Shown here in pieces: positions 7,172-54,871 of a stretch of 64,000 nt of DNA. The stretch is taken from positions 1,344,001 to 1,408,000 of the forward strand of contig CBDCFN010000016.1 in NCBI GenBank assembly GCA_965216315.1, read 5' to 3'. How positions within the stretch are numbered: the stretch's first letter is position 1; every line of letters starts with the position of its first letter. The notes below the pieces were generated by a model that was given only the letters and a program-made list of their open reading frames with translations, was not told the origin of the DNA and searched no databases. Source of the stretch: a bacterium (GTDB lineage Bacteria > UBA10199 > 2-02-FULL-50-16 > JAJFLM01). A program made the translations under genes and the position numbers.

Positions 7172-8069
7172 GCTAATCATCATTATAGGGGTTCGCGTCA
7201 CCCCCTCCACCGGCAAAACCGGACGGAGCCTCCCCCTCTCACTCGCGTTGCTCGCAATTTTAGCATGTTTGGGAACCGTGCACCCCGTTTATGCAGAAGG
7301 GGACATCATTGGGGATATTATTTCCGCCGAAGCCAAGAAAAAGCCTACGTCATCGGCAAAGAAACCTTCCACAAAGAAGGCTAGAAAGAAGGTTATCGTC
7401 ATTGATCCGGGACACGGAGGGAAAGACACGGGTGCCATCGGAGTCCGAAAAGTTCGCGAAAAAGATCTCGTACTGCAACTATCGCGACGGCTGGCTAAGG
7501 AGCTCAAAAAAATAATTGATGCTGAAATTATCTTAACGCGTTCCAATGACAAATTTATCACGCTTGATCAACGCGATGAAATTGCGATTGCTAAAAAAGC
7601 CGACGCCTTTTTATCTATCCATGCGAATTCGGCTAAACGAAAAGAAGCGAATGGTATCGAAATCTATTACCTTAATGACGGCTCGGATGAAGCCGCCAAC
7701 CGCTTAGCCGCACGTGAAAACAAAGGCAGCAAAAAAAGCCTCTCAGACCTCAAAAAAATACTTTCAACTCTGATCCAGACAGACAGTACGGAATTATCGC
7801 AATTACTTGCAAAGGAAGTGAAAAAGTCGATTCACAAACAGATAGCCTCTCGCTACTCTTTAGAACGATTGGACATCAAAACGGCTTTATTCTACGTCCT
7901 GGTGGGCTCACAAGCTCCCAGTATACTCTTGGAAGTTGGTTTCGTGACCAATCCAAAGGAAGCCAAGCGGCTCGGACAAAAGGAATATCAGGAACGTCTC
8001 TCCAAAGCCGTCGCCGCCGGTGTTGCCCGTTATTTTAAAGTGATAGAATCGCAGAAAGTGAACTTATAA
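7164..8069 (+). CDS. N-acetylmuramoyl-L-alanine amidase (Amidase_3)
   Basis: IDPGHGGKD, EKD, LTR, FLSIHAN, PSILLEVGF; signal peptide interrupted by a 69-bp repeat. Confidence 0.92.
   Translation: MHKLIIIIGVRVTPSTGKTGRSLPLSLALLAILACLGTVHPVYAEGDIIGDIISAEAKKKPTSSAKKPSTKKARKKVIVIDPGHGGKDTGAIGVRKVREKDLVLQLSRRLAKELKKIIDAEIILTRSNDKFITLDQRDEIAIAKKADAFLSIHANSAKRKEANGIEIYYLNDGSDEAANRLAARENKGSKKSLSDLKKILSTLIQTDSTELSQLLAKEVKKSIHKQIASRYSLERLDIKTALFYVLVGSQAPSILLEVGFVTNPKEAKRLGQKEYQERLSKAVAAGVARYFKVIESQKVNL
7188..7256 (-). repeat. 69-bp palindromic element (family C), antisense in-frame insertion in the amidase signal peptide
   Basis: Reverse complement gcgagcaacgcgagtgagagggggaggctcc...ggagggggtgacgcgaacccc matches the copies in miaB and argS. 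Confidence 0.85.
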
Positions 8070-10756
8070 TGATGGATTATCCATTCCCTACATTAGATTG
8101 GAGTTTACCGGAAAAAGGCGAGGTCCTAAAGCGGTATGTTCAAGAGAAAAAGAGCACGCTTGATAAGATTATTGAAAACAAGGAGCCTGCACGCTTTGCG
8201 ATCGAATGGCGGACAAATGCCATTGATAAGCTTTTGATCGGTCTTTTTGAACAAACGAGCCGCACTTTGGAAGCCGATCAGAATCATTATGCCATGATAG
8301 CCCAAGGCGGTTATGGCCGGCGGGAACTCAGCTACCATTCCGATATAGACTTATTGTTCTTACATAACAGTCAACATCCTAAGAAGCTTAAAGCGCAACT
8401 CAATCAAATCCTTTATCCGTTATGGGATAGTGGACTCGATCTCGGCTTTGCCGTACGGACGGAAAAAGAGTGTCTCAAACTAATGAAGGATGATCTTACG
8501 ATCCTGACTTCGTTGATCGACGCGCGCTATATCGTCGGTAATGAAACTATTTTTAATAGTTTTGAAAAGAAATTTCGGAAGCATTTGGATAATTCACGTT
8601 TTCGCATCAGCTTCATGCAAAAGAAAGAAAAGGAACAAACAGATCGTTTGCATCGTTTTGGAGGGTCGGTTTTCTTACAAGAGCCTAACACTAAAGAGGG
8701 GAAAGGGGGATTAAGAGAATATCACCATATCCACTGGGTCACCAAAACTGTTTTCAATACAAATGACCTTTCCGCCCTTGTCCGTGCCGGTTGGATCAAG
8801 TCCAAGGAGCTCAGAAACTTGCAGGAGGCCATTACATTCATCTTGGCGGTACGAAACATGCTCCACAAACTCTCCGGACGCAAAACAGATCAAATCCTAT
8901 ATGAGCATAAAGCCGCAATAGCAGAATGGTTGGGCTTTAAGGATACTGAAACCATACTCGCCGTCGAAGATTTTATGAGAGCCTATTATCGGCATGCCAG
9001 TGAATGTTTTCGCATCAGTGAACAAGTTAATCGCAAACTTCTTCAATCTAAAGGTGGGTTTAGACTTAAGCGACTCAAACGGATGAAAAAGCAAAAATTT
9101 GATGAATATTTTAATATTGAAAATAAGTTCCTTACTTTAGGTGATCCTGACGCCTTCAAACTAAAACCATCAAACCTCATTTATATCTTTCGGATCATGC
9201 AACAAACGGGAATCACCCCCGGTCGAAGCGTTAAAGAAGCCGTCCGTGACAGCCTGAAACTAATCAATGATGATTTTCGCGCTAATCCCACCCACGCGAA
9301 AATATTCCGCGAGATGCTGGCCGAACCGGAAACCATCGCCCCGCCCATGCTTGCCATGCATGAGCTCGGCGTACTCGACCGTTTTCTGCCGGAGTTCAAG
9401 AACCTCATGTATCGTGCGCAACATGATGTCTATCACGTTTATACCGTCGATATTCATTCTATTCTGGCCGTAGGTGTCTTTGGGCGCCTGGTCGCTGGCA
9501 TCTATCAGGATAAATATCCAACGGCGACAGAAGTAGCCAAGGCCATCGTCAAAAAGGACCTCCTGTCTTTTGCTATCCTTTATCATGACATTGGGAAGGG
9601 GGAAGGGTCCGGACATGTAGAGAAGGGGGCACCACTTGTCCGCCGAGCGGCCGAACGACTGGGATTCACTCCTGATGAGATTGATACGAGTGAGTTTCTG
9701 GAATTGTCTCATTTAATGATGACACACTTGGCGTTTCGACGTGATTTAGATGACCCCAATCTCATTCTCCAGTTTGCTAAATCGATGGCGACAGAAAGCA
9801 ATCTTAATAAACTCTATGTGCTTACCTTTAGTGATGTAAAAGCAGTCAGCCAAGAGGCCCTTACTAAATGGAAGGAAAGCCTGCTCGAATATTTATATCT
9901 AAAGGCACGTTCCGTTCTCAAAAAAGGGGATTTTTCCAAAGAGAAAATTGAAGAAATTAAGAGCTCACTGCTGGAAAATACAAAAATTTTAGCTAATTCC
10001 GAGTTCAGTGATGACGAAATCAACCACTTTTTCAGTATTATGCCGCCGCGTTATTTCCTAACGGCGACAGCCGTTTCAATACTTGACCATCTAGACATGT
10101 TACGCCGTTTCAATGGGCTTCCCGTCGTCTTTAACCGTCGCATACTTGAGAAAGAGGGATCAAGTGAATGGACCTTATTGACACTCGATACTCCTGGCCT
10201 TTTTTCCAAAATCTGTGGTGTTGTCGCCGCCAATAGTCTCAATATTACTGAAGCCTATTTAAATACGACTAATGACGGTAAAGACCTTTTTATTTTCAAG
10301 CTTCAAACCGCACAAGGACAATCGATTGCGGAAGAAAGCAAGTGGAATAAATTGGAGGCGGACGTCCTTAATGTGGTTCAGGGTGAAATTCCCCTACAGG
10401 AACTGCTCGGCAACCGCTTGCGCCCATCGCTCATCAAGCCAAAGACAGCGCGACAACTCCCAACCAAGGTTGTTATCGATAATGATTTATCGCCGTTTTA
10501 CACAATCATTGATGTCTATGCGCACGATCGCGTCGGGCTCCTTTATCATATAACTTCGGCACTTGCAGAGCTGGGGCTTTATGTTGATATGTCAAAAATC
10601 GCTACTAAGGTCGATCAAGTCACGGATACATTTTATGTACGCGACATTTTTGGCCAGAAATTGCGCGCCGAAGACCGGATTAAAAGAGTTCGCAAAACGC
10701 TATTAAGCGTCATCGATGGAGTTCAAGAAGAAAGTCAGGAGGTCGCTCGAGCATGA
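8069..10756 (+). CDS. glnD: [Protein-PII] uridylyltransferase GlnD
   Basis: GGYGRRELSYHSDIDLL, EPNTKEGKGGLR, YHVYTVDIHS, LYHDIGKG HD domain, two ACT domains (DTPGLF, DRVGLL). Confidence 0.96.
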   Translation: MMDYPFPTLDWSLPEKGEVLKRYVQEKKSTLDKIIENKEPARFAIEWRTNAIDKLLIGLFEQTSRTLEADQNHYAMIAQGGYGRRELSYHSDIDLLFLHNSQHPKKLKAQLNQILYPLWDSGLDLGFAVRTEKECLKLMKDDLTILTSLIDARYIVGNETIFNSFEKKFRKHLDNSRFRISFMQKKEKEQTDRLHRFGGSVFLQEPNTKEGKGGLREYHHIHWVTKTVFNTNDLSALVRAGWIKSKELRNLQEAITFILAVRNMLHKLSGRKTDQILYEHKAAIAEWLGFKDTETILAVEDFMRAYYRHASECFRISEQVNRKLLQSKGGFRLKRLKRMKKQKFDEYFNIENKFLTLGDPDAFKLKPSNLIYIFRIMQQTGITPGRSVKEAVRDSLKLINDDFRANPTHAKIFREMLAEPETIAPPMLAMHELGVLDRFLPEFKNLMYRAQHDVYHVYTVDIHSILAVGVFGRLVAGIYQDKYPTATEVAKAIVKKDLLSFAILYHDIGKGEGSGHVEKGAPLVRRAAERLGFTPDEIDTSEFLELSHLMMTHLAFRRDLDDPNLILQFAKSMATESNLNKLYVLTFSDVKAVSQEALTKWKESLLEYLYLKARSVLKKGDFSKEKIEEIKSSLLENTKILANSEFSDDEINHFFSIMPPRYFLTATAVSILDHLDMLRRFNGLPVVFNRRILEKEGSSEWTLLTLDTPGLFSKICGVVAANSLNITEAYLNTTNDGKDLFIFKLQTAQGQSIAEESKWNKLEADVLNVVQGEIPLQELLGNRLRPSLIKPKTARQLPTKVVIDNDLSPFYTIIDVYAHDRVGLLYHITSALAELGLYVDMSKIATKVDQVTDTFYVRDIFGQKLRAEDRIKRVRKTLLSVIDGVQEESQEVARA

Positions 10757-11025
10757 CCGGCATGATCATATTAATCATTCTGCTCATGGCCGTCCTGATC
10801 GGTCTCGTTATCAAACTGCGTCAACAAAGCCGAAAATATGAGGAAAAAAGTGTCAAAGAGACGATGTCTCCGATCATGCACTCGATTATTCGGCGGGAGC
10901 GAACCGTCAATTTACAGCGAAAGCAGCGTTTTGAGAAGTCCTTGGCCGCAGCCACCGACCCGCAAGGTGAAGCTCGGGAAAGGCCGGATAAGACCTCTCC
11001 AGGGGAAAATTCCCACTCTTCTTGA
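10753..11025 (+). CDS. Small single-pass membrane hypothetical protein
   Basis: ATGA overlap with the glnD stop; hydrophobic N-terminus then basic helix. Confidence 0.6.
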   Translation: MTGMIILIILLMAVLIGLVIKLRQQSRKYEEKSVKETMSPIMHSIIRRERTVNLQRKQRFEKSLAAATDPQGEARERPDKTSPGENSHSS

Positions 11026-11165
11026 GTGAACCTGCCCTCAACCCATTACGATGCCATGCGTCAAAAGTGTTGATTTCATTAAGTATTCTTGAATACCCCT
11101 CGCGCCAATGTTAGGATGCGGCTGTCGAGACTGGAGAAGGGCTGGAGCGATCCGCGGAGCGAAAC

Positions 11166-11486
11166 ATGGCACGAAAAATAAAGATCTGCAGCGCTGAGGG
11201 CTGTAATAACGCCCAAACCACTAAAGAATATTGCCGCTTGCATTACTTGCAGAATTGGAAAACGATTAAAGCGGAAGAAAAACGTAAAGCAAGCAAGCGA
11301 CTCAATCGCTACGTTGAAGGCATCATGAAGCGCAACCCCGACTCAGCAAGGTCACGTGCTGAAGGCGGTGACGTAGAATACAGTTTAAGTGCCTCCGACG
11401 AAGTAGAGGGCCTGGTTGAGGACCTTGGTTATTCGGATCCAGACAGTCTCGATGAAATCATTTCCAACCTCAAAGAAGATAAGTAA
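11166..11486 (+). CDS. Hypothetical protein with N-terminal C-x4-C-x9-C-x2-H putative zinc finger
   Basis: CSAEGC...YCRLHY; GGAG RBS; upstream TTGAAT-17-TAGGAT promoter-like sequence. Confidence 0.7.
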   Translation: MARKIKICSAEGCNNAQTTKEYCRLHYLQNWKTIKAEEKRKASKRLNRYVEGIMKRNPDSARSRAEGGDVEYSLSASDEVEGLVEDLGYSDPDSLDEIISNLKEDK

Positions 11487-12879
11487 AAAAAAGGTCTATT
11501 TTAAGACATTCGGCTGTCAAATGAATGAGGCCGACTCCGACCGCATGCTCGGCCTCTTGGCAAATGATGATTACATTGCCACCCAGGATCCGGATGACGC
11601 CGACCTCATTATCGTCAATACCTGTAGTGTCCGCGATAAGGCCTACCACAAAGCCATCAGCGCGATTGGCAAACATAATAAAAATGGCCAAAAGATTAAA
11701 ATCGGCGTAACCGGCTGTGTCGCATCCCAAGAGGGAAAAGTACTTGCCGAGCGCTTTGATAGCGTCGATTTCGTGCTGGGAACCGACCATATTGATAAAA
11801 TTCGGGAGGCAGTTCAATATACGCGGCTTCAGGATGGTGCCTATATCGCGACTAAATTCCATGAAATTGAGGACTACCATTTTCCTGAGATCGCTATTGC
11901 CCCTTCAACGAGAATGGTGAAGGCCTATGTCACTATTATGAAGGGCTGCGATAATGTCTGTGCCTTTTGCATCGTTCCTTCGACACGTGGCCCTGAAATA
12001 TCCAGAAGGGCTGAAGACATCTTACAAGAGATACAAGCACTCGAACGACGAGGAGCCCGTGAAATCACGCTATTGGGGCAAAACGTCAATTCTTACGGAA
12101 AACAAAATTCTACCGATGCGGACTTCGCGTCCCTGCTCAGAAAAGTAGAAGAGAACACCCGCATTGAAAGGCTCCGTTTTACCTCACCTCATCCCAAGGA
12201 CCTTTCGCCGCGACTGATTGAAGAATATCGCCGCAGTAAAATTTTGTGTCGACATATCCACCTGCCGGCCCAGTCAGGATCTTCGCGTGTCTTAAAACGG
12301 ATGCGTCGGGCACATACTCGTGACACTTACTTGAAACGCATACACGACCTGCGCAACGCCTGTCCTGACGTGGCCATCACGACCGATTTAATCGTCGGGT
12401 TTCCAGGAGAAAGTGACGCCGACTTTCAGGATACTCTCTCGCTCATGCGGGAAGTCGAATATGATGCGTCTTATTCATTTGCCTATTCCGAACGACCGGG
12501 CACGGAAGCGGCTGGATTTGAGGATGATGTCCCCGCTAAAGTAAAATCGGAGCGCCTCCAAGCCCTCCAGGCCCTGCAACACGACCTCAGTGCACAAAAA
12601 AACAGCTATTTCATTGGGAAAATAGTCCCTATCTTGGTGGAAGGGATTGATAAAAAGCATCACAAAAACTATGTACATAGCGAACGCAGTAAGCGAGAGG
12701 GGGAGGCTCCAGGAGCTGTGCTTCTGGAGGGGGCGACGCGAGCCCCTATGATGGGACGTACAAGTTGCAATCGCGTCGTCAATTTTGATGGCAGTGACGA
12801 TGATATCGGTGATATCATTAATATAAGGATAGCGAGCGCAACAGCGTATTCACTGCATGGAGACAAGGTAGATGGGTAG
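11452..12879 (+). CDS. miaB: tRNA methylthiotransferase MiaB
   Basis: KTFGCQMNEADS, NTCSVR, MKGCDNVCAFC, LLGQNVNSYG, C-terminal TRAM domain; start uncertain. Confidence 0.95.
   Translation: MKSFPTSKKISKKKVYFKTFGCQMNEADSDRMLGLLANDDYIATQDPDDADLIIVNTCSVRDKAYHKAISAIGKHNKNGQKIKIGVTGCVASQEGKVLAERFDSVDFVLGTDHIDKIREAVQYTRLQDGAYIATKFHEIEDYHFPEIAIAPSTRMVKAYVTIMKGCDNVCAFCIVPSTRGPEISRRAEDILQEIQALERRGAREITLLGQNVNSYGKQNSTDADFASLLRKVEENTRIERLRFTSPHPKDLSPRLIEEYRRSKILCRHIHLPAQSGSSRVLKRMRRAHTRDTYLKRIHDLRNACPDVAITTDLIVGFPGESDADFQDTLSLMREVEYDASYSFAYSERPGTEAAGFEDDVPAKVKSERLQALQALQHDLSAQKNSYFIGKIVPILVEGIDKKHHKNYVHSERSKREGEAPGAVLLEGATRAPMMGRTSCNRVVNFDGSDDDIGDIINIRIASATAYSLHGDKVDG
12679..12747 (+). repeat. 69-bp palindromic element (family C) inserted in frame in the MiaB TRAM domain
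   Basis: agcgaacgcagtaagcgagagggggaggctccaggagctgtgcttctggagggggcgacgcgagcccct; encodes SERSKREGEAPGAVLLEGATRAP. Confidence 0.9.
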
Positions 12880-13402
12880 TTCTAAAAGTCGTGATGCTGA
12901 CTTTATCAAGGTGACCGTGACCGGTCTTACCATTGACCCATTTACTAATATGCCGATTATCATTCTAAAAGATGAAGACGAAAAAAATGCTCTCCCCATC
13001 TGGATCGGGCTCATAGAAGCTTCGGCCATCGCCACTGAACTTGAAAAGGTTGAACTGTCACGACCCATGACCCATGACCTCCTTAAAAATATTTTAGGTG
13101 AACTTGCCATTTCGGTAGAACGCGTTGAAGTCGTCGATCTACAAGACAATACTTTCTTTGCAAATATTCACTTAAAAAAAGCCGGCGAGGACATGATTGT
13201 CGATGCCCGTCCCAGTGACGCCGTTGCGTTGGCCTTGCGTACCAACGCTCCCATTTATGTCTCGCGTTCCGTAATGGAAAAATCACGAAAAATTGATCTC
13301 TCAGCTGAAGGGATTGATGCAGAAGAATCCGTTAAAAAAGAAAAATGGACGGAAATTCTTGAAGGCCTCTCGCCCGACGACTTCGGCAAATACAAGATGT
13401 AA
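12872..13402 (+). CDS. Bifunctional nuclease family protein (DUF151)
   Basis: LPIWIG, RPMTHDLL, DARPSDAVALALR. Confidence 0.92.
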   Translation: MGSSKSRDADFIKVTVTGLTIDPFTNMPIIILKDEDEKNALPIWIGLIEASAIATELEKVELSRPMTHDLLKNILGELAISVERVEVVDLQDNTFFANIHLKKAGEDMIVDARPSDAVALALRTNAPIYVSRSVMEKSRKIDLSAEGIDAEESVKKEKWTEILEGLSPDDFGKYKM

Positions 13403-13405
13403 GCC

Positions 13406-13816
13406 GTGTTAAAATCGACCTTCCGTCTCTTTATCCGCTATTGGATTCCATTGCTTGTCTATGCAATTCTCATCCTCTTTATCTCTTCGCGACCTTCACT
13501 AGGTCTTCCGCGCATCGACATTCCCGATAAGCTCATTCATTTTTGTGAGTATCTTCTCCTCGGCATGCTGGTATTCCGGCTGCTGACTCGCGATTATCAT
13601 TTAAGCGGTGCCAGGCTATGGGTGACCCATGTCGGCGGCATCATGTTGTTTGCGCTGGGCGATGAGTTCCTGCAGAGCTTCATTCCTGGTCGCGATTCCG
13701 ATGTATGGGACTGGGTCGCCGATGTGGGCGGCGGTAGTTTAGGGGCATTCTGCTATTGTATCATTCGATTGGCTTGGGATAGGATCAAAGGAAGGGCCAA
13801 CCATGACGATGTTTAA
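13406..13816 (+). CDS. VanZ-family membrane protein
   Basis: DKLIHFCEY, DEFLQSFIPGR, DWVAD. Confidence 0.85.
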   Translation: MLKSTFRLFIRYWIPLLVYAILILFISSRPSLGLPRIDIPDKLIHFCEYLLLGMLVFRLLTRDYHLSGARLWVTHVGGIMLFALGDEFLQSFIPGRDSDVWDWVADVGGGSLGAFCYCIIRLAWDRIKGRANHDDV

Positions 13817-15294: not shown

Positions 15295-15299
15295 TTTCT

Positions 15300-17222
15300 A
15301 TGAAGCAATCACAAAAAACACTCGCCCTCTGGGCGCTGATCATACTTCTGTCCGTCTCAATCCTGCATTTTCTTAATAACCGCCCCAGCCCGGAAAAAGA
15401 AATCAGTTTCAGCGATTTCATGAGCGCCGTCAGAGAGCAACAGATTGAATCGGTAACCATTAAAGAATCCGAATATTTCGGTCGCTTTAAAGAGGCCTCG
15501 GGAAGTGAGTATTTCAAGACGATCGGCCCGATTAATAGTGAAAAAGCCTTGGAGCTACTGGCGAGTACCGATGCCATTGTCCGTTACGAAAAACCCGAAG
15601 AAACCGCGTTGTGGCAACAAATCCTTATCTCTTGGCTACCGATGCTCCTGTTGTTTGGTTTCTTTTTCTTCAGCATGCGTCAGATCCAAGTCGGCGGGGG
15701 CCGAGCCATGAGCTTTGGCCGCAGCCGCGCCAAGCTCCTCTCAGCGGATCAGAAAAAGGTCACCTTTAGAGATGTCGCGGGAGTTGACGAAGCTAAATAC
15801 GAACTTGAAGAGATCATTGCGTTCCTTAAAGAGCCCAAAAAATTTACCAAGCTCGGCGGCAAACTCCCTAAAGGTGTTCTCCTCATCGGACCTCCGGGAA
15901 CGGGTAAGACTTTATTAGCCAAGGCGGTTGCCGGTGAGGCGGACGTCCCGTTTTTTAGCATCAGTGGCTCCGATTTTGTGGAAATGTTCGTCGGTGTCGG
16001 CGCTTCGCGCGTCCGCGACCTCTTTGAACAAGGTAAAAAGAACGCCCCCTGCATTATCTTTATCGATGAAATTGATGCCGTCGGCCGCCACCGTGGTGCC
16101 GGATTAGGCGGGGGTCACGACGAAAGAGAACAGACCCTCAATCAATTATTGGTTGAAATGGATGGCTTTGAATCCAACGAGGGCGTTATCATCATGGCCG
16201 CAACCAACCGTCCGGACGTTCTCGATCCGGCCCTGCTGCGTCCGGGTCGTTTTGACCGCCGTGTCACAGTCAACCGGCCGGCACTCAAAGGTCGGGAAGA
16301 GATCCTCAGGGTCCATACGCGTAATGTCATTTTGGCCGACAATGTCGATCTTTCGGTTATCGCCCGCGGAACACCTGGCTTCTCCGGTGCTGATTTAGCC
16401 AATCTCGTCAACGAGTCCGCCTTGCAGGCTGCTCGCGCCGACAAGAAAGAAATCGAGTCAGATGACTTCGAATTAGCTAAAGATAAAGTGCTGATGGGCT
16501 CTGAACGGAAGGGAATGATCCTCCACGATGAAGAAAAACGGACGATTGCGTTCCACGAAGCCGGCCATACCTTAGTCGCTAAATTATTGCCCGGCACGGA
16601 TCCCGTGCACAAAGTGTCGGTTATTCCGAGGGGCATGGCGCTTGGCGTCACGCAGCAATTACCTATCGACGAGCGCCATATTCATTCTAAAGATTACGCA
16701 GAAAATAATATTGCCGTCCTGATGGGAGGGCGTTGTGCTGAAGAATTGATCTTTCAGCAAAAAACAACGGGCGCGGGTGATGATATCGATAAGGCGACAA
16801 AAATGGCTCACAAAATGGTTTGCGAGTGGGGCATGAGTGATCTCGGACCGCTACGCTTTGGGGGTAATGACGAAGAAATATTCCTAGGCCGCGATTTTGC
16901 GCAAAAGAGCGAATACAGTGAGGCAACGGCGATTGCAATCGATACGGCCATAAAAGAATTGGTCACGTCTAACTACGAACGAGCCAAGAAATTACTCTCA
17001 GACAATAAGGAGACCTTGGTGCGCATTGCCGAGGCCCTCCTCGAACATGAAACCTTAGACGGTTCACAGATAGACCAACTCGTAAAGGGTGAAGATATAG
17101 ATCCACCGAGTTCTTCTTTTAAGAAGGGTCCTAAATCGGCACCGGCATCTGAAAGCAAACCGAGTCGTGAAAAACGTCAGAAGTTAACCGGCACGCCGTT
17201 CCCGGAGCCGGGTAAAGCCTGA
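15300..17222 (+). CDS. ftsH: ATP-dependent zinc metalloprotease FtsH
   Basis: Two TM helices, [22 protein letters not shown] 15300 preferred to the ORF-track start 15111. Confidence 0.98.
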
Positions 17223-17244
17223 TTCATAACACGGTTTCGATCCA

Positions 17245-18042: not shown

Positions 18043-18085
18043 CCTTGAAAATAAACGAAAAGTCCCGTAGATCCCGTGGCTCCGT

Positions 18086-45539: not shown

Positions 45540-45549
45540 ATCTATCAAA

Positions 45550-45606
45550 CCTCTCCCGACCTTCGGCCACCCTCTCCTTACTTAAGGAGAGGGGCTGGAG
45601 GTGAGG
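45550..45606. repeat. Intergenic family-B repeat between carA and carB
   Basis: cctctccc...ccctctcctt-actt-aaggagaggg-gctggaggtgagg; same layout as the mtaB insert. Confidence 0.7.
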
Positions 45607-45607
45607 T

Positions 45608-48002: not shown

Positions 48003-48993
48003 TCTCTTCGTCGCTCTTCCATTTACTGTGATGCACAAGCAAGTACAAAACCGCCATCCGGACAGCAATCCCATTAGTCACTTGGTCAAGGATCATATTG
48101 CGTGGTCGAACCGCTTCAGCACCATCCTTTACTAAAGCCGTATCAGCAATAGCAGGAGAAATTTCTACGCCACGATTGATTGGGCCGGGATGCATAATAA
48201 TCGCCGTATCTTTCATAAACTCAACCGCTTCATCACCAAGTCCAAAGAAGCGCGCATATTCACGGAGAGTAGGAAAATTGGCCTGATCCTGCCGCTCTTG
48301 CTGGATACGCAGTAAAATAACCGCATCGGCCTGCGGCAGAGCCTCACGTAAATAATGATAGACTTCGACTCCCATTTCTTCGAGCCCGTAAGGCATTAGC
48401 GTCGCCGGACCCACAACGGAAATGCGAGCCCCTAATTTGCGAAAACCATAGATGTTAGACCGAGCGACCCGGCTAAACCGTATATCCCCGATAATCACGA
48501 CATGCTTGCCTTCAAGATCTCCCAAGGCTTCTCGAGCTGTGAATAAATCGATCAGCGCCTGAGTGGGATGCTCATGGGCCCCATCGCCTGCACTCACGAC
48601 GGAGGCATCGGTATATTCAGTAAATAAGGAGGGAACACCGCTACTCTTATGACGGACGATCAATATATCCGGCCTCATGGCATTCAAGGTTTCCCCCATA
48701 TCCTTTAAACTCTCCCCTTTCGAAAGACTGGAGCTCCCCGTATTAATATTCAATAAGTCGGCAGAGAGCCGTTTGGAGGCTAGTTCAAAGGAAGTCCGCG
48801 TACGCGTCGAGGGCTCAAAGAAAAGGTTCATGATAGTCCGCCCGCGCAATGAAGGGACCTTCTTGATCTGTCGAAACAAAACTTCCTTAAAAGATTTGGC
48901 GGTATCCAGAATAGCTGAAATCTCCCCGGCCTCGAGATCGCGCAGCCCTAAGAGATGTTTACGGTTAAATTGTTGTGCCGCGGCCTCAACCAT
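47995..48993 (-). CDS. pyrB: Aspartate carbamoyltransferase catalytic subunit
   Basis: FFEPSTRTRTSFE, HEHPTQAL, LRIQQER, MHPGPINRG. Confidence 0.97.
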   Translation of the reverse strand: MVEAAAQQFNRKHLLGLRDLEAGEISAILDTAKSFKEVLFRQIKKVPSLRGRTIMNLFFEPSTRTRTSFELASKRLSADLLNINTGSSSLSKGESLKDMGETLNAMRPDILIVRHKSSGVPSLFTEYTDASVVSAGDGAHEHPTQALIDLFTAREALGDLEGKHVVIIGDIRFSRVARSNIYGFRKLGARISVVGPATLMPYGLEEMGVEVYHYLREALPQADAVILLRIQQERQDQANFPTLREYARFFGLGDEAVEFMKDTAIIMHPGPINRGVEISPAIADTALVKDGAEAVRPRNMILDQVTNGIAVRMAVLYLLVHHSKWKSDEENE

Positions 48994-49516
48994 GAGGGCC
49001 TCCCCGCTCGATAACAACACTATCATCCCCATCGACTTCTTTCAGTCTGACTTCGACATTATCCGTCGGCTGGGTTTCGATTTGTTTTCCCACGATATCC
49101 GCCTGAATGGGCAGTTCACGATGACCGCGATCAATCAAAACAACAAGAATGACCCGGCTCGGACGTCCATACTCCAACAACGCATTTAAAGCCGCTCGGA
49201 TTGTCCGGCCTGTGAAGAGGACATCGTCAACCAGATAGACAATGCGATCATCGACTGAAAACGGCAGATTGGTCACACCAATCTGCGGATTAGGCGCGAT
49301 ATGGGAAAGATCGTCCCGGTAGAAAGTGATATCGAGGCTCCCCACTTCGGGTTGCGCGTCTCCCGCCTTAAGCAAACGAGCAGCTAAGCGCTCCGCGAGC
49401 GGAATGCCCCGGCGCCGTATCCCGACCAGGAGGGGCTGATCCACCCTTTCCTTCACGATAGCAGCGGTCAGGCTATCCAGGATCTGAGCAATCTCCTGTG
49501 CGCCCATCAACTGCAT
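48986..49516 (-). CDS. pyrR: Bifunctional pyr regulator / uracil phosphoribosyltransferase PyrR
   Basis: LDITFYRDDL, VDDVLFTGRTIRAAL, DRGHRELPIQAD. Confidence 0.95.
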   Translation of the reverse strand: MQLMGAQEIAQILDSLTAAIVKERVDQPLLVGIRRRGIPLAERLAARLLKAGDAQPEVGSLDITFYRDDLSHIAPNPQIGVTNLPFSVDDRIVYLVDDVLFTGRTIRAALNALLEYGRPSRVILVVLIDRGHRELPIQADIVGKQIETQPTDNVEVRLKEVDGDDSVVIERGGPHG

Positions 49517-49539
49517 GAGGAAATCCCCTTTAAATTCCT

Positions 49540-49574
49540 AAAAAAAACCTCCCCGAAGGAAATTCTGAGGAGGT
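49540..49574 (-). terminator. Terminator in the pyr operon leader (candidate attenuator)
   Basis: Minus strand acctcctcagaa-tttcc-ttcggggaggt then T-run, between promoter and pyrR. Confidence 0.75.
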
Positions 49575-49611
49575 CAAGAAGGCACAAACCGGCGTTGGAC
49601 ATTAAAGCGGT

Positions 49612-49640
49612 CTTCTATTCACTACCGCCGCCCTTGTCAA
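49612..49640 (-). promoter_or_regulatory. Sigma70-type promoter of the pyr operon
   Basis: TTGACA-17bp-TAGAAG on the minus strand. Confidence 0.55.
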
Positions 49641-49668
49641 GAAATTGCCTTCCGAGGGTGAAATTTCC

Positions 49669-50442
49669 CTATTCCAGCCAATGACCGAAGCGGTCCCAGC
49701 GGACCCCGAATTTATCATAATTGAGAGAGAGCCAGACAAACATGGCTCGCCCTTTGAGGTTGGTTAGCGGAACAAAGCCCCAATCACGGCTATCTGAAGA
49801 GCGATTCCGGTTATCCCCAATAACAAAAAAGTGCCCTGCCGGTATCGTCACATCAAAACGCATCGGCATCGCCGCGCGGTGATACTGAACCACAAAGTGC
49901 TTGTCCGCTATCGTTTCAATATAAAACTCGTAATCACTCCAATTAGGAAAGCTGTTCACCTCAAACGAAGGGACATTACTGTTCTTCAGAACCGGCTCAA
50001 TCTTGAGGAGCCCATCGCGCGCGGAGGCCTTGGCCCGTACTTTCGGCACCTCGACCTCATTAATATAGAGTCGCTTACCGTCCATAGCAATACGGTCACC
50101 GGGTAAACCAATGACACGTTTAATGAAATCTTTTTTCTCATCAATAGGATAGATAAAAACGGCAATATCCGCCCGCTCCGGATTGCCAAAACGGGCAATC
50201 CAATTCTTGCTCAGCGGCACCCGCAAGCCATAGGCGAATTTGTTCACAAAAAGATGGTCGCCGATCAAAATAGAAGGCACCATGGAGGCTGAGGGCACTT
50301 TAAACGCCTCAATGACAAAAGAGCGCAAAACAACCGCTACAAGCAGGGCCGTAATCAAGGCCTCTGAGTATTCCCGAAGCTTTGACTTCTTCTTTTTTAC
50401 AGGCTTTGCTGCCTCGACTCCTTGTTCTTTAGCATCGGTCAT
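49669..50442 (-). CDS. lepB: Signal peptidase I
   Basis: PSASM catalytic Ser, FIKRVIGLPGD, GDNRNRSSDSR. Confidence 0.96.
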   Translation of the reverse strand: MTDAKEQGVEAAKPVKKKKSKLREYSEALITALLVAVVLRSFVIEAFKVPSASMVPSILIGDHLFVNKFAYGLRVPLSKNWIARFGNPERADIAVFIYPIDEKKDFIKRVIGLPGDRIAMDGKRLYINEVEVPKVRAKASARDGLLKIEPVLKNSNVPSFEVNSFPNWSDYEFYIETIADKHFVVQYHRAAMPMRFDVTIPAGHFFVIGDNRNRSSDSRDWGFVPLTNLKGRAMFVWLSLNYDKFGVRWDRFGHWLE

Positions 50443-50472
50443 CGAATAGTCCTCATATATATCTGGACGCCT

Positions 50473-52266
50473 TTAATCAACTTTTAATACCGCCAGGAAA
50501 GCCTCTTGAGGAATCTCAACATTGCCCACCTGCTTCATGCGTTTCTTACCCGCCTTCTGCTTTTCCAGTAGTTTGCGCTTGCGTGTAATGTCGCCGCCGT
50601 AGCATTTAGCCGTCACATTTTTACGTAAGGCTTTGACGTTTTCGCGCGCGATGATGCGTCCGCCTATCGCCGCCTGCAGCGCCACATCATACATCTGCCG
50701 GGGAATGACCTTGCGCAACTGCTCGACCAATTGGCGACCCCGACTCTCGGCCTTCTCACGATGGATAATCACGCTCAAGGCGTCAACGGGGTCCCCGTTC
50801 ACCAAGATGTTGAGGCGAACCAAATTAGCGGGACGCCACTCGCTGAGCTCATATTCAAAACTCGCGTAACCCTGAGAGATGGATTTAAGTCGATCGTAAA
50901 AGTCGAACATAATTTCCGCAAAAGGCATGTCATAGTCGAGCAAAACGCGATTCTGGGACGGGTAATGCATCCCCGTTTGAACGCCGCGCTCTTCCACGCA
51001 AAGTTGAATCAAACCACCCACCATTTCCGCGGGTGTATGAATGTGTGCCTTTACAAAAGGCTCCTCCGTCCGCTGTATTTTTTGCGGATCCGGCCATTCC
51101 GCCGGGTTATCGATTTCCATCCAACTATCGTCCGTCAACTGAACCCGGTACTGGACAGTCGGCGCCGTCACGACCAAGTCCAATCCGTATTCCCGTTCGA
51201 GTCGTTCACGGATAATCTCCACATGCAAAAGGCCTAAGAAACCGCAGCGAAACCCAAAACCCAAGGCGTTAGATGTTTCGGGCTCATATACAAAAGAAGC
51301 ATCGTTGAGGCGGAGCTTTTCGAGAGCCGCTTTCAGCGATTCGTATTGTTCTGAATTCGTCGGATAGATCCCTGCAAAGACCATGGGTTGAACTTCGCGA
51401 AAACCTGGAAAGGCTTCTGCAGCGGGTCGTTCACTGTCCGTTACCGTGTCTCCCACGTGAATGGCACGAATATCTTTAATCGCCGCGGTTAAAAATCCGA
51501 CCTCCCCTGCCTTCAGCTCGGCTACTTCGGCAGGCCGGGGCTGGTGGATACCAAGGCTGAAAACATCATAGCTAACACCGGTTGCCATAAACTGAACATT
51601 CATTCCCTTCTTCAGGGTCCCATCCAGTACGCGCACCAACGCCACGGCGCCGAGATAATTATCAAACCAACTATCAAATATCAGCGCCCGCAAAGGCGCC
51701 TCATCATCCCCTTGCGGCGCCGGAATGCGGTTTACAATGGCCTCGAGCAACTCCTCAATTCCGGCGCCTGTCTTGGCACTTGTCAAAATGGCTTCATCCG
51801 CAGGGACACCCAAGACTTCTTCGATCTCGTGCCTGATTTCTTCGGGACGCGCGGAAGGAAGATCGATCTTATTAATGACCGGTATGATTTCAAGATCATT
51901 ATCGATGGCCAAGTAGGCGTTCGCGACCGTCTGTGCTTGAACCCCTTGCGCCGCATCAACAACCAGCAAAGCCCCTTCGCAGGCCCTGAGACTGCGTGAC
52001 ACTTCATAAGTAAAGTCGACATGGCCCGGTGTATCAATCAGGTTCATTGAATACACTTCGCCATCGTGCGCTTTAAAATTCATTCGAACGGCTTGTGCTT
52101 TGATGGTAATACCGCGTTCGCGTTCTAGCTCCATGGAATCAAGGATCTGATCCTTCATTTCCCGCGCTGTAATCGCACCGGTATGCTCGAGAATTCGATC
52201 GGCAAGTGTCGATTTGCCGTGATCGATATGGGCAATAATGCAGAAGTTTCGGGTCCGCTCTCTCAT
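50473..52266 (-). CDS. lepA: Elongation factor 4 (LepA)
   Basis: [41 protein letters not shown]. Confidence 0.98.
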
Positions 52267-52508
52267 CAACGACGCTTCAGATCTGCGGCTCGCTTGAGAC
52301 CCTCCGGCTCCTCGGACACCAATTGCAATTCATCACGATAGAGATCTAGTTGGCCAGGGAGGTAGCGGCGATTTTGGTCCAGGATGATATCAATCCCTTG
52401 GCGAATATACTCGGCCACGGGAACTTTCGTGCGCGCATGGAGCGCTTTTAATTCCAGCTCCTGCTGTGGTGTAATATAAACCGTTGTGGGAATTTTTCGC
52501 CGTGCCAT
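52266..52508 (-). CDS. Ribbon-helix-helix DNA-binding protein
   Basis: TTVYIT strand then ...[14 protein letters not shown] helices; coupled to lepA. Confidence 0.8.
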
Positions 52509-52517
52509 TAGAAAACC

Positions 52518-53108
52518 TTATGTATTTGAGCGCACGATGATTGCCGCCACCTTTTCCCGTTGGGAAAGTTGATCGAGAAACTTTCGTGCCCCTTCTCTCG
52601 TCTTGAAACTGCCAATTCGCACACGATACCAGGTACCGCTATTAGCCACCTCACCAATCGATAAAAAGGCATCATATCCCTTTGCCTGCCATTGATTGAC
52701 CTTCGCCGCGGCACCACCTGCCTGGCGATACGATCCTACTTGGATAGAGTAGCCTCGCCGACTTCGAGCTTTTTCAGGTTTTGCCGGAATAGCGGGTTTT
52801 GCCTTCGCCAATTGTTCAATCGTTGGCGTTACAGGCTCCGGCAACGTCTCTTTGCGCGTCAACTCTTTTGGAAACGTGTACTTTATCTCTGCATTTGTCG
52901 GCGTTCGCTCTAATTTCAGTTCTTCTTCGGTCGATGCTAGCGGATTCTTATCAACCGGTGCCTCACCACCAATCATGGCCGGTCCGTAACGTGCCCCCAA
53001 GTAGAACACAAAAAAAAGCGCTACAACCTCCAGCAGTGCGAGGCTGATAAACTGCCCAAATGTAAATCGACAAAAATAATCTTCGTCTTCTTCATGAAAT
53101 TCGTTCAT
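52518..53108 (-). CDS. SPOR-domain membrane protein (FtsN/DedD-like)
   Basis: N-terminal TM; YSIQVGSY...WYRVRIGSF; downstream of argS. Confidence 0.88.
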   Translation of the reverse strand: MNEFHEEDEDYFCRFTFGQFISLALLEVVALFFVFYLGARYGPAMIGGEAPVDKNPLASTEEELKLERTPTNAEIKYTFPKELTRKETLPEPVTPTIEQLAKAKPAIPAKPEKARSRRGYSIQVGSYRQAGGAAAKVNQWQAKGYDAFLSIGEVANSGTWYRVRIGSFKTREGARKFLDQLSQREKVAAIIVRSNT

Positions 53109-54871
53109 GGGGACTCAACCTCATCCTCTGGTAGGGATCTCATCTCATCCGGAGCCGATAAATTCAAGAGCTGCAGGCCATCGGCCAGCACTGATTTGAT
53201 GACGCGCAGAAGATACAATTTTGCCCGAGAGCTGTCAATATCCTCTGATATTACGCGATATTGCGCGTCTTCCCGGGCCTTGGCATAATAATTGTGAAAG
53301 CGGCGGGCCAAATCGAGCAAATAAAAAGCGATATGATGCGGCTCAAGCGTTCGTGCCGCTTTCTCAATGATTTCAGGGTATTCAAAAAGAAACTGTATCG
53401 TCTTCAACTCTTCCGGCAAACTCAAGCGGTCGAGAGCCAGGTCCACTGCATCAAGGAGTTCAATCCCTTGTGACATCGCTTTACGCTCGATACTGCAGAT
53501 TCGAGCATGGGCATACTGGATATAATAGATAGGATTCTCCGCATTCTGCTGCTTCGCTAATTCCAGGTCAAAGTCCAAGTGGGCGGAAGGAGCTCGCTGC
53601 AGCAGAAAAAAGCGCATCGCATCCGGACCCACCTCGTCGAGAACTTCACGAGCCGTCACGTAGTTGCCGGCCCGCTTACTCATTTTTACAGTCTCCGTAC
53701 CGCGACATACCCGAACATACTGATAAAGGACAACATCTAACGAGTGAGGATCATAGCCGAGCGCCTCAAGAGCCGCCTTAACCCGTGGCACGTGACCATG
53801 GTGGTTGGCTCCCCAAACATTAATCACCCGATCGAACCCATCCTTATATCGATTCGCGTGACAAACGATATCATCGGCAAAATAAGTCGGTTCCCCATCA
53901 CTTCGTCTGAGGACCGAATCACGTTCGTCAATCGAAGGGGCTTGCGTCGCCCCCTCCTGAAGCACAGCTCCAGGAGCCTCCCCCTCTCGCTCGCGTAGCT
54001 CGCTAGGAACAAACCACAAAGCTCCATCCTCTTCCTTTGTTACCCCCCGTTCAATTAGTTTTTGCATCACCTCATCGACTTCGTTGCGAATGTCGTGTTC
54101 ATAGATCCAACGATCAAAACTTGAGCCCATAGAGGTACAATCGTTTTGGATTTGCTCAAGAAGTCGACGCACACCCCAGGTCGCCAACTGATCCACCGCC
54201 GCAACTTCATCTTCCTCCAAATAATTGCGTTCCGGGTGTCCGGCGGCTTCTCGAGCCAGCTCCTTAACATATTCCCCGAAGTACCCCCCCTCCGGAAGCT
54301 CACTGGCGATTCCAGCCGCCTCCTTCATCCAATGAAGTATCGACTGGCCTAAACGATCAACCTGCCCGCCAATATCGTTAACATAATACTCGGTCTGCAC
54401 TTCATAGCCGCATTGAGCTAAAATTCGGGCCAAACTATCCCCAATAGGCCCTCCACGCGCATTGCCGACATGAAGCGGGCCGGTCGGATTAGCACTGACG
54501 TACTCAATAAGAACCTTTATACCGTTGCCGATTTGATGCTTAGCAAAATGCGGGTCTTCCAGTTCCGGCAACGTATTCTGCCAGGCTCCTTCCGCGAGGC
54601 GTATATTGATGAAGCCCGGGCCGGCAATTTCAGTCTGAGCAATCACACCCGCCTCATCTTGCAATTCATTACATATCATCTCCGCAAGTTGTCGCGGTTT
54701 CATTTTATAACGATTCCCCAGTACCAAGGCGAGATTCGAAGCAAAATCACCATGTTCTTTCTGCTTCGGTCGTTCAACAGTTGCCTCAAAATCCTGCAAC
54801 TCTCCCCACCCCGCTTTGTGCGCCGCATGATGAACTGTATCCGTCAGAATTTTAGCTATTCTTTGCTTCAT
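53105..54871 (-). CDS. argS: Arginyl-tRNA synthetase
   Basis: GPGFIN, EYVSANPTGPLHVGN, KMSKRAG, YYIQYAHAR. Confidence 0.97.
   Translation of the reverse strand: MKQRIAKILTDTVHHAAHKAGWGELQDFEATVERPKQKEHGDFASNLALVLGNRYKMKPRQLAEMICNELQDEAGVIAQTEIAGPGFINIRLAEGAWQNTLPELEDPHFAKHQIGNGIKVLIEYVSANPTGPLHVGNARGGPIGDSLARILAQCGYEVQTEYYVNDIGGQVDRLGQSILHWMKEAAGIASELPEGGYFGEYVKELAREAAGHPERNYLEEDEVAAVDQLATWGVRRLLEQIQNDCTSMGSSFDRWIYEHDIRNEVDEVMQKLIERGVTKEEDGALWFVPSELREREGEAPGAVLQEGATQAPSIDERDSVLRRSDGEPTYFADDIVCHANRYKDGFDRVINVWGANHHGHVPRVKAALEALGYDPHSLDVVLYQYVRVCRGTETVKMSKRAGNYVTAREVLDEVGPDAMRFFLLQRAPSAHLDFDLELAKQQNAENPIYYIQYAHARICSIERKAMSQGIELLDAVDLALDRLSLPEELKTIQFLFEYPEIIEKAARTLEPHHIAFYLLDLARRFHNYYAKAREDAQYRVISEDIDSSRAKLYLLRVIKSVLADGLQLLNLSAPDEMRSLPEDEVESP
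53936..54004 (-). repeat. 69-bp palindromic element (family C) inserted in frame in argS
   Basis: Reverse complement agcgagctacgcgagcgagagggggaggctcctggagctgtgcttcaggagggggcgacgcaagcccct; encodes SELREREGEAPGAVLQEGATQAP. Confidence 0.9.

What the first reader, a model, noticed from the sequence alone, without database searches (positions are those of the whole stretch)
7188..54004. A 69-bp palindromic element inserted in frame in three unrelated conserved genes
Seen: three copies (7188-7256 amidase, 12679-12747 miaB, 53936-54004 argS), each 23 codons, none noticed in intergenic DNA. The miaB and argS copies are in the same frame and give near-identical peptides (REGEAPGAVL[L/Q]EGAT[R/Q]AP); the amidase copy is antisense. 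The central stem has a compensatory change (ctccAggagc..gcttcTggag vs ctccTggagc..gcttcAggag) and the third copy rebuilds it with other bases (ccgg-ttttg-ccgg). Known precedent: Rickettsia palindromic elements insert in frame in housekeeping genes. Inference: a possibly undescribed family of structured, non-autonomous coding-sequence invaders that add peptide loops, or alternatively are removed at RNA level.
Basis: partly seen in the sequence, partly recalled or inferred. Interest (0 to 1): 0.88.

Follow-up and report, generated by a model that had tools for sequence, protein, structure and literature searches.

The report
Three-hairpin mobile repeat, sometimes translated
The three 69-base inserts are real copies of a small, structured, apparently selfish DNA repeat that sits mostly between genes but is occasionally read through as an extra floppy loop in working proteins, a behaviour already known from Rickettsia and other bacteria.

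Summary
All three copies are at the stated coordinates and in frame: ArgS, MiaB, and the signal peptide of an amidase. Orthologues lack the ArgS and MiaB segments (10 of 10, 9 of 9).

The "coding-sequence invader" reading does not hold. The genome carries 39 copies. By my crude gene searches are intergenic and 9 lie in ORFs, although about 90% of the genome is coding.

The element is about 70 nt long. It has three hairpins with compensatory changes in 13 of 20 pairs, and two invariant C-rich linkers. It has no terminal inverted repeats. I found no match in Rfam, no partner transposase, and no paper printing its core.

It occurs in 37 of 93 genomes of its own phylum. Nearly the same core appears in MAGs labelled Nitrospirota, Syntrophorhabdus, Syntrophus and others.

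Two features are unusual:
- **Flanking duplications.** About 10-15% of copies are flanked by long direct duplications of host gene ends, and these differ almost only at synonymous sites.
- **Bridge ORFs.** Short ORFs cross the element and stop at the next gene's start codon, as in mycobacterial MIRUs.

This scan had already noted the same family in another genome (e1-972832).

Verdict: a new family and variant of a known kind (RPE, intragenic REP, MIRU-like). The insertion mechanism is unknown. Removal at RNA level is untested, but the strictly open frames argue against it.

The parts
7188..7256 (+). Element copy read in frame as residues ~8-31 of the amidase precursor. It lies inside the signal peptide, and its 3' part supplies part of the hydrophobic core.
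7164..8069 (+). N-acetylmuramoyl-L-alanine amidase gene (Amidase_3 domain at residues 82-292). Its ATG overlaps the stop of the upstream ORF, which ends at 7171.
12679..12747 (-). Element copy read in frame in MiaB, between the radical-SAM core and the TRAM domain (residues ~420-443). It is absent from 9 of 9 orthologues.
11416..12879 (+). miaB gene (UPF0004, Radical_SAM and TRAM domains). The true start codon may lie downstream of 11416.
53936..54004 (+). Element copy read from the opposite strand as ArgS residues ~288-311. It is absent from 10 of 10 orthologues. In the AlphaFold model it covers the protein's only long internal low-confidence loop (298-315).
53105..54871 (-). argS gene (Arg_tRNA_synt_N, tRNA-synt_1d and DALR_1 domains).
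53937..53953 (+). Hairpin 1 of the ArgS copy: a 5-bp stem (GGGGC/GCCCC) with a 7-nt loop. It is nearly invariant across the family; the amidase copy carries the compensatory GGGGT/ACCCC.
53954..53976 (+). Hairpin 2 of the ArgS copy: a conserved CTCC/GGAG base, then a variable, covarying upper stem and a small loop.
53989..54003 (+). Hairpin 3 of the ArgS copy: GC..GC arms around a conserved 2x2 pyrimidine mismatch. The two central pairs are unpaired in 76 of 88 copies and become Watson-Crick pairs in 12.

Best explanation
The inserts are copies of a small, non-autonomous mobile DNA repeat. The core is about 70 nt. Many Nitrospirota and Desulfobacterota copies extend to about 110 nt by adding a fourth long hairpin.

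The unit is three hairpins joined by two invariant C-rich linkers.

**Shown**
- It has spread within genomes and between distant lineages.
- It lands mainly at gene boundaries: next to stop and start codons, and next to tRNA genes.
- It survives inside genes only where it is harmless.
- Four of its six frames are open. One of them encodes a hydrophilic Gly/Ala/Pro/Glu-rich peptide.
- In-frame copies persist in surface loops, inter-domain linkers and a signal peptide.
- At operon junctions, a short ORF that runs through the element and stops at the next start codon is often present.

**Inferred**
- These in-frame copies are translated as disordered loops.
- The bridge ORFs preserve translational coupling.
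- The invariant motifs and the conserved imperfect third hairpin are the recognition features of a trans-acting enzyme, which I could not identify.

**Open**
- The chemistry of insertion. A subset of copies carries long, variable flanking duplications of the target. This fits neither a classical DDE MITE nor an HUH/RAYT element.
For: **Dispersal**
- 39 copies fall into subfamilies and sit in both orientations.

**Inserted, not ancestral**
- ArgS: 10 of 10 orthologues lack the segment.
- MiaB: 9 of 9 orthologues lack it.
- NadC and the nitrite/sulfite reductase carry extra residues exactly at the element when compared with solved homologues.

**Location**
- 30 of 39 copies are intergenic, against about 9.5% non-coding DNA.
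- There is no orientation bias between co-directional genes: 8 same, 10 opposite.
- 5 copies lie within 3-10 nt of tRNA genes, two of them in the rRNA spacer.

**Structure**
- 88.6% of cells are paired.
- 13 of 20 pairs show double changes.
- 0 of 500 shuffles reach the observed values, and the slid controls are far lower.

**Distribution**
- Patchy: 37 of 93 genomes of the phylum, 33 of 73 genera, and neither of the two genomes of the same family; backwards-read control 0.
- More than 119 loci turn up in named MAGs of other phyla.

**Tolerance in proteins**
- The AlphaFold model of ArgS has mean pLDDT 86.1. Its only long internal stretch below 50 is residues 298-315.

**Bridge ORFs**
- Seen. 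The precedent is MIRU (passage read).
Against: - No transposase or recombinase could be tied to it. There are no split halves bracketing a gene in this genome. Genes lying between paired copies in other genomes are housekeeping or ParD-like. Y1 transposase genes occur in 78 of 93 genomes regardless of the element, and 8 element-bearing genomes show none, among them G008 at 98% completeness.
- No empty site was seen. Contigs from 4 runs (2 samples, 1 study) all carry both window copies. Recent mobility and the true target duplication are therefore not shown.
- Near-identity of about 40 nt across phyla is unusual for a selfish repeat. It could instead reflect a conserved cellular function.
- Translation of the inserts is inferred from the open frames, not observed.
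Confidence: 0.78

Rival explanations
1. The element is primarily a functional structured RNA or DNA signal: an mRNA stabiliser or processing site, an attenuator whose C-rich linkers pair with Shine-Dalgarno sequences, or a protein-binding site. On this view the intragenic copies are by-products.
For: - Two linkers and hairpin 1 are almost invariant across phyla, while stems 2 and 3 covary.
- Many copies fill the whole spacer between operon genes.
- Some foreign copies end in a terminator-like hairpin followed by a T run.
- Copies sit directly 3' of tRNA-Ile and tRNA-Ala in the rRNA spacer.
Against: - No orientation bias relative to transcription: 8 same, 10 opposite.
- No Rfam match even at E <= 1, in the 7 of 39 copy loci that I searched.
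- Presence inside unrelated enzymes, and patchy presence among relatives: 37 of 93 genomes, and neither of the two genomes of the same family.
- No RNA data are available.
Confidence: 0.15
2. The inserts are taken out after transcription, or skipped by the ribosome (intron-like removal or gene-60/byp-like translational bypassing), so the proteins are unchanged.
For: - Stable hairpins inside coding sequence.
- Copies in 8 genes, of which 5 are well-conserved enzymes or an exported amidase.
Against: - All 8 intragenic copies keep an open frame. They use only the four stop-free frames, six of them the same frame. That would not be needed if the segment were removed or bypassed.
- No intron-like family matched in Rfam.
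- No matching take-off and landing codons or in-frame stop were seen at the ArgS and MiaB junctions (by eye).
- The insert sites are loops or linkers where extra residues are tolerable.
Confidence: 0.04
3. The flanking duplications and their synonymous-only differences are not made by the element's insertion mechanism. They come from ordinary processes: homology-facilitated illegitimate recombination with DNA of related strains that carry the element next to the same gene, or later allelic replacement of one copy by homologous recombination.
For: - The differences between duplicate pairs look like differences between orthologous alleles. In seven coding pairs, 30 are synonymous and 2 are not, and 29 of 32 fall in one codon phase.
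- Most copies have no long duplication: 33 of 39 here, and 100 of 113 elsewhere.
Against: - The same architecture recurs in unrelated genomes and genes.
- Some duplications are perfect and non-coding, at 55, 40 and 38-41 nt, as expected for fresh target duplications.
- Both copies abut the element closely, within 4-12 nt on the left.
Confidence: 0.3

Closest known systems
Rickettsia palindromic elements (RPE; Ogata et al. 2000, 2002, as summarised in passages of PMC10969869 and PMC3733652)
   Same: - A short structured repeat with no coding capacity of its own.
- Found between genes and also in frame inside unrelated conserved genes, where it adds a peptide segment at tolerant sites.
- No known transposase.
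   Different: - RPEs are described as about 100-150 bp and as confined to Rickettsia.
- This element is about 70 nt with three separate hairpins and invariant C-rich linkers.
- It recurs nearly unchanged in several phyla.
- Only about a fifth of the copies here are intragenic.
- Sequence relatedness to RPEs was not tested.
REP / BIME / REPIN elements, including the intragenic GTAG- and CGTC-tagged REPs of Di Nocera et al. 2013 (PMC3733652; abstract, section 5 and passages read)
   Same: - GC-rich hairpins that are mostly intergenic and close to gene ends.
- Stems covary.
- Occasional in-frame copies or dimers encode 20-30 residues, including in tRNA synthetases.
   Different: - REPs are single 20-40 bp palindromes with a terminal GTAG or CGTC tag, and they often bracket a RAYT gene.
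- Here the unit is a fixed three-hairpin composite.
- GTAG precedes only 4 of 35 copies.
- CGTC is invariant but lies inside the loop of hairpin 1.
- The one RAYT-like gene carries unrelated inverted repeats.
Mycobacterial interspersed repetitive units (MIRU; Supply et al. 1997, as described in a passage of PMC12548453)
   Same: Repeats sit at operon junctions and contain a short ORF that overlaps the flanking stop and start codons, so that translational coupling is kept.
   Different: - MIRUs are tandem minisatellite units of mycobacteria, oriented with transcription.
- This element is mostly single-copy per site, occurs in either orientation, is strongly structured, and also sits inside genes.
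IS200/IS605-type non-autonomous derivatives (palindrome-associated elements); features recalled from my own knowledge
   Same: - No terminal inverted repeats.
- Imperfect subterminal hairpins.
- A conserved short motif just outside the left end: T at -5 in 32 of 35 copies, and TA in 27 of 35.
   Different: - That family makes no target duplication, whereas 6 of 39 copies here have long ones.
- No tnpA or tnpB with matching ends was found.
Classical MITEs such as the Correia/NEMIS element (TA duplication, 26-bp inverted repeats; described in passages of PMC3733652 and PMC10969869)
   Same: - Small, non-autonomous and AT-dinucleotide flanked: TA on the right in 34 of 35 copies and on the left in 27 of 35.
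- Can lie in or next to coding regions.
   Different: - No terminal inverted repeats: the best end-to-end identity is 8 positions, which 63% of shuffles reach.
- No related full-length insertion sequence.

Membership tests
Rickettsia palindromic elements | Repeat inserted in frame in conserved genes and absent from orthologues | tested here: met
   ArgS 10 of 10 and MiaB 9 of 9 orthologues lack it. NadC and NirA/Sir were checked against solved homologues.
Rickettsia palindromic elements | Size of about 100-150 bp forming one long palindrome, and homology to RPE-1 to RPE-10 | tested here: not met
   The size and the three-hairpin fold differ. Homology to RPE sequences was not tested, because none were at hand.
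REP / REPIN (GTAG or CGTC tagged) | Single 20-40 bp palindrome with a terminal unpaired GTAG or CGTC tag in most members | tested here: not met
   GTAG precedes 4 of 35 copies; ATAG precedes 21 of 35. CGTC is invariant but internal to the loop of hairpin 1.
REP / REPIN (GTAG or CGTC tagged) | Copies bracket a RAYT (Y1 transposase) gene | tested here: not met
   There is one RAYT-like gene (NF047646 at 55.6 bits, below its cut-off of 80). It is flanked by an unrelated perfect 15-bp inverted repeat, and I noted no element copy near it (nearest about 59 kb away by the coordinates).
MITE (IS-derived) | Terminal inverted repeats | tested here: not met
   The best identity between the ends is 8, and 62.6% of shuffles reach it.
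MITE (IS-derived) | Short target-site duplication of fixed length | tested here: inconclusive
   TA lies at both ends in most copies, but no empty site was found. A subset has 17-68 nt duplications.
MITE (IS-derived) | Parent insertion sequence with the same ends | tested here: not met
   No orphan left or right halves exist in this genome at up to 3 mismatches.
IS200/IS605-derived palindromic elements | Subterminal imperfect hairpins, no inverted repeats, fixed flanking target oligonucleotide, no duplication, cognate TnpA | tested here: inconclusive
   - The hairpins and the lack of inverted repeats are met.
- The flank motif is weak.
- Long duplications occur in 6 of 39 copies.
- No cognate gene was found.
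MIRU-like operon-junction repeats | ORF inside the repeat overlapping the neighbours' stop and start codons | tested here: met
   Of 13 copies lying close between co-directional genes, 4 have an ORF coupled at both ends, and 6 have one that stops within 7 nt of the next start.
MIRU-like operon-junction repeats | Tandem arrays, one orientation relative to transcription | tested here: not met
   Copies are mostly single, and the orientation split is 8 same to 10 opposite.
Any Rfam RNA family | Covariance-model match | tested here: not met
   No family matched the element in 7 copy-bearing loci at E <= 1.

The most novel reading that the evidence does not exclude
The family marks an undescribed way of inserting DNA. 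On this reading, a structured element of about 70 nt that is shared by several phyla goes in together with a long target duplication of variable length (17 to about 95 bp). The duplication regenerates the interrupted gene end. It leaves a translated bridge ORF through the element, and both copies of the gene end stay under purifying selection. This would imply an unknown enzyme, or a replication and template-switch route, rather than a DDE or HUH transposase.
Probability: 0.25. Interest if true: 0.75.

Novelty: new variant of a known kind. Interest (0 to 1): 0.5.

Why it matters
Small repeats that become part of working proteins are a source of new loops and signal-peptide variants. They also cause annotation errors such as false N-termini and spurious small ORFs.

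This family is shared almost unchanged by Nitrospirota, syntrophic Desulfobacterota and this genome's own lineage. Whatever moves it must therefore cross phylum boundaries, and it has not been identified.

If the long gene-end duplications are made at insertion, they point to an unknown integration mechanism. They would also explain how operons absorb such elements without losing translational coupling.

Tried and rejected
- **RNA evidence.** No RNA holder is listed for the window stretch, so expression and RNA-level removal are untested.
- **Presence/absence polymorphism.** Contigs of 4 runs (2 samples, 1 study) all carry both window copies, with no joint across them. This says nothing about mobility.
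- **Partner gene, searched four ways.**
  - Orphan halves in this genome: none.
  - Genes between paired copies in other genomes: a beta-CASP RNase, PFOR subunits, a ParD-like antitoxin, and TPR or amine-oxidase-like proteins; no transposase.
  - Paralogous short ORFs downstream of copies in one Nitrospirota MAG, which led nowhere.
  - Co-occurrence with Y1 transposases: not informative, at 78 of 93 against 37 of 93 genomes.
- **DUF559 lead from earlier scan notes.** The only DUF559 gene lies about 23 kb from the nearest copy, by the coordinates.
- **Plasmids.** There is only a 32-nt match to the fourth-hairpin region in a Vibrio plasmid.
- **Viral contigs.** 1 locus among 2.9 million contigs, not followed up.
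Only one copy of this family lies in that window, so the priA copy belongs to another family.
- **The phylum-level search** returned the same 93 genomes as the class search and added nothing.
- **A tmRNA-like Rfam hit** beside copy 4 scored 29 bits, below the gathering score of 47. I regard it as a tRNA-like flank, not part of the element.
Full report
**1. Observation**

- A profile built from them finds 39 copies in the 2.96 Mb genome: 38 full or nearly full and one internally deleted. All have E <= 6e-8, and the next hits have E > 2.
- Only the three named copies lie in the window.
- A two-motif pattern taken from the invariant parts gives 26 exact matches in this genome. The same pattern read backwards gives none in any of 93 genomes.
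- The repeat is therefore far beyond chance.

**2. The three window copies are in frame in real genes**

Pfam names the hosts as arginyl-tRNA synthetase, MiaB and an Amidase_3 cell-wall amidase.
- **ArgS.** The element encodes residues ~288-311, between two strands of the catalytic domain. All 10 orthologues that I aligned, out of the 11 relatives' loci returned, lack the segment. One locus (L012) was dropped by my motif filter. Identities to the query are 43-64%.
- **MiaB.** The element lies between the radical-SAM core and the TRAM domain. 9 of 9 orthologues lack it.
- **Amidase.** The copy occupies codons 8-31.
  - The ATG at 7164 overlaps the stop of the upstream ORF.
  - The two closest orthologues have an ordinary signal peptide followed by the same mature N-terminus.
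  - So the element sits inside the signal peptide, and its 3' part now contributes the hydrophobic core.
- An AlphaFold model of ArgS was built from an 11-sequence alignment (mean pLDDT 86.1). Its only long internal stretch below pLDDT 50 is residues 298-315, which lies in the insert.

**3. Genome-wide context**

I made crude gene calls with a codon-usage score: 2420 genes covering 90.5% of the genome. With these calls, 30 copies are intergenic and 9 lie in ORFs.
- One of the nine is a 70-codon ORF that is itself a product of the element (see section 7).
- Of the other eight:
  - Five are internal to conserved proteins: ArgS, MiaB, quinolinate phosphoribosyltransferase, a nitrite/sulfite reductase, and the amidase signal peptide.
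  - One forms the C-terminal tail of a CDP-alcohol phosphatidyltransferase.
  - Two lie at the extreme N-terminus of a cytochrome-b-like and an AtpI-like ORF, where the true start may be downstream.
- Many intergenic copies fill almost the whole spacer between operon genes, or touch a stop codon.
- Five lie 3-10 nt from a tRNA gene. Two of these follow tRNA-Ile and tRNA-Ala in the rRNA spacer.
- Between co-directional genes the element is in the same orientation 8 times and the opposite orientation 10 times.
- The element is thus not a coding-sequence specialist.

**4. Frames**

Four of the six frames of the unit are free of stops. The other two are closed by the terminal TAG.
- Six of the eight intragenic copies use the same frame of the G-rich strand, which gives a hydrophilic Glu/Gly/Ala/Pro-rich peptide.
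- NadC and the amidase use a frame of the other strand.
- Copies with one extra base in hairpin 2 change frame inside the element yet stay open.
- Open frames in all eight argue that the inserts are translated rather than removed.

**5. Anatomy**

- The unit starts with TA in 27 of 35 full-length copies and ends with TA in 34 of 35.
- A T is conserved five bases upstream in 32 of 35.
- The layout, in order:
  - hairpin 1, a 5-bp GGGGC/GCCCC stem with a 7-nt loop;
  - hairpin 2, a conserved CTCC/GGAG base with a variable upper stem;
  - an invariant C-rich linker;
  - hairpin 3, whose arms keep a 2x2 pyrimidine mismatch.
- I counted pairs on 88 distinct copies: 15 chosen from this genome's 35 full-length copies, and 73 of the 74 full-length foreign copies (one, L090:3-80, was left out by oversight).
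  - 88.6% of cells are paired.
  - 13 of 20 pairs show changes on both sides.
  - None of 500 shuffles reaches any of the five measures, and slid controls give 32-53% paired.
  - The two central pairs of hairpin 3 are unpaired in 76 of 88 copies and become Watson-Crick pairs in 12.
- There are no terminal inverted repeats.
- No Rfam family matches at E <= 1. This search covered 7 of the 39 copy loci.
- Many foreign copies carry a fourth, long hairpin to the right, and an ATCTA-type motif to the left.

**6. Distribution**

- **Own phylum.** The held set has one class and 93 species genomes. The pattern occurs in 37 of 93 genomes, 25 of 63 good-quality ones, and 33 of 73 genera. There are up to 35 exact matches per genome. 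It is not found in the two genomes of the same family, which are 93% and 80% complete.
- **One genome per species across prokaryotes.** Of the 80 rows listed:
  - 41 carry Nitrospirota-type labels,
  - 17 'delta proteobacterium',
  - 7 Syntrophorhabdus or Syntrophorhabdales, including the cultured S. aromaticivorans UI,
  - 5 Syntrophus, Smithella or Syntrophobacterales,
  - 4 'Pseudomonadota',
  - 6 other, one of which (Streptomyces) I noted as a likely chance match without checking it against the profile hits.
- **Other collections.** One viral contig holds it. No plasmid holds it.
- **Intragenic copies elsewhere.** They occur in other genomes too, for example in the linker of a pyruvate:ferredoxin oxidoreductase subunit.

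**7. Flanking duplications and bridge ORFs**

This was not part of the original finding.

*How often they occur*
- Six of the 39 copies here are flanked by direct repeats of host DNA, 37-68 nt ungapped. Their scores are 18-60. The other 33 copies score <= 10, and 120 mismatched left/right flank pairs score <= 9.
- Among 113 foreign copies, 13 score >= 34, while 298 of 300 controls score <= 26. Three of the 13 are neighbouring element copies, which leaves ten.

*What is duplicated*
- The duplicated pieces are gene ends:
  - the first 13-22 codons of smpB, a hisF-like gene and a peptidase-like gene;
  - the last 16 codons plus the stop of nuoC;
  - the 5' leader plus start of a sufS-like gene;
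  - a tRNA 3' end in a foreign locus.
- Some pairs are perfect and non-coding, at 55, 40 and 38-41 nt.

*How the copies differ*
- In the seven coding pairs that have at least 2 differences, 29 of 32 differences fall in one codon phase.
- In the frame that starts at the ATG or ends at the stop, 30 are synonymous and 2 are not. One of those two lies upstream of the start codon.
- A non-coding pair (L107) shows no periodicity.
- The best frame was chosen from six, which flatters the synonymous count. The phase count is nearly free of that choice.

*Bridge ORFs*
- In each of the five cases examined here, an ORF runs through the element and stops at, or overlapping, the next gene's start codon. At nuoC-nuoD it also starts on the nuoC stop.
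- Among 13 copies lying close between co-directional genes, 4 have such an ORF coupled at both ends, and 6 have one that stops within 7 nt of the next start.
- The same trick is described for MIRUs (passage read).

*Open questions*
- I cannot decide between three accounts of the duplications: made at insertion; arising by recombination with related DNA; or both copies being selected.
- The nuoC pair has 8 synonymous differences in 16 codons and no replacement, which is hard to reconcile with a decaying relic.

**8. What moves it**

- There are no orphan halves in this genome.
- The single RAYT-like Y1 gene is flanked by an unrelated 15-bp inverted repeat.
- Y1 genes occur in 78 of 93 genomes of the phylum whether or not the element is present. 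Eight element-bearing genomes show none, and four of those are at least 95% complete.
- Genes lying between paired copies elsewhere are ordinary.
- The enzyme remains unknown.

**9. Comparison and novelty**

- In-frame palindromic repeats are known from Rickettsia (RPE). They are also known from intragenic REPs in several phyla, including in tRNA synthetase genes (PMC3733652: abstract, section 5 and passages; PMC10969869: passages).
- Coupled ORFs inside operon-junction repeats are known from MIRUs (PMC12548453: passage).
- This family fails the defining features of REPs (tag, single palindrome, RAYT association), MITEs (inverted repeats, parent IS) and RPEs (size, single palindrome).
- I found no paper that prints any of six core strings. 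One unrelated hit came up. That search covers main texts of open-access papers only, not supplements.
- The scan itself had already described the same family in another genome as a cross-phylum three-hairpin intergenic repeat (e1-972832). It had also described similar in-frame hairpin families in Nitrospirota.
- I therefore rate this as a new variant of a known kind. The long gene-end duplications and the unknown mobilising agent are the parts worth following.

Noticed in passing
G000:C16:1708121-1708445 (L042:2750-3074): Two copies, one truncated in hairpin 3, lie in the 16S-23S spacer. Each sits a few bases 3' of tRNA-Ile or tRNA-Ala and is co-oriented with transcription, so they must be transcribed and removed during rRNA and tRNA processing.
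   Followed up: partly
G000:C16:784941-785013 and 1900333-1900404 (L016, L030): Two copies share both flanks. The left flank is a tRNA/tmRNA-like T-arm fragment (Rfam tmRNA hit of 29 bits, below the gathering score of 47). A tRNA-Ala gene lies about 120 nt to the right. This may be a duplicated tRNA-linked module.
   Followed up: no
G000:C16:1980723-1980843 (L050): One copy carries a 48-nt insertion inside hairpin 2. The origin of the inserted piece is unknown.
   Followed up: no
G000:C16:1212049-1215378 (L171:923-1999): A single RAYT-like Y1 transposase gene of 247 codons is bracketed by a perfect 15-bp inverted repeat that is unrelated to the element. This is a 'TIRYT'-type arrangement in the sense of Di Nocera et al.
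   Followed up: partly
G000:C16:~2310416-2331428: The earlier scan note e1-354310 reports a 76-78 nt hairpin repeat in priA and near lexA. Only one copy of the present family lies there (2314285-2314356), so the genome holds at least one further in-frame repeat family.
   Followed up: partly
window 11982-12391 (inside miaB): In all four runs one high-depth contig (45-187x, against 3-11x for this organism) joins across 408 nt with only 20 nt on the shorter side. It most likely comes from another organism's radical-SAM gene and is not a variant of this gene.
   Followed up: no
L133, L134, L106, L075, L081 and others (right of the element): In Nitrospirota and 'delta' MAGs the element is followed by a long perfect hairpin with TAGAT...ATCTA arms. 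The left flank carries an ATCTA(T/C)T motif that resembles the end of that hairpin. This may define the full-length unit of about 110 nt.
   Followed up: partly
L202 (IMG/VR contig, 16399-17039): One viral contig out of 2.9 million carries an exact match to the two-motif pattern.
   Followed up: no
G000:C15:464611-464928 (L203): A DUF559 (Vsr-like) nuclease gene. Earlier scan notes link this gene family to another hairpin repeat. Here it is about 23 kb from the nearest copy of this element.
   Followed up: partly
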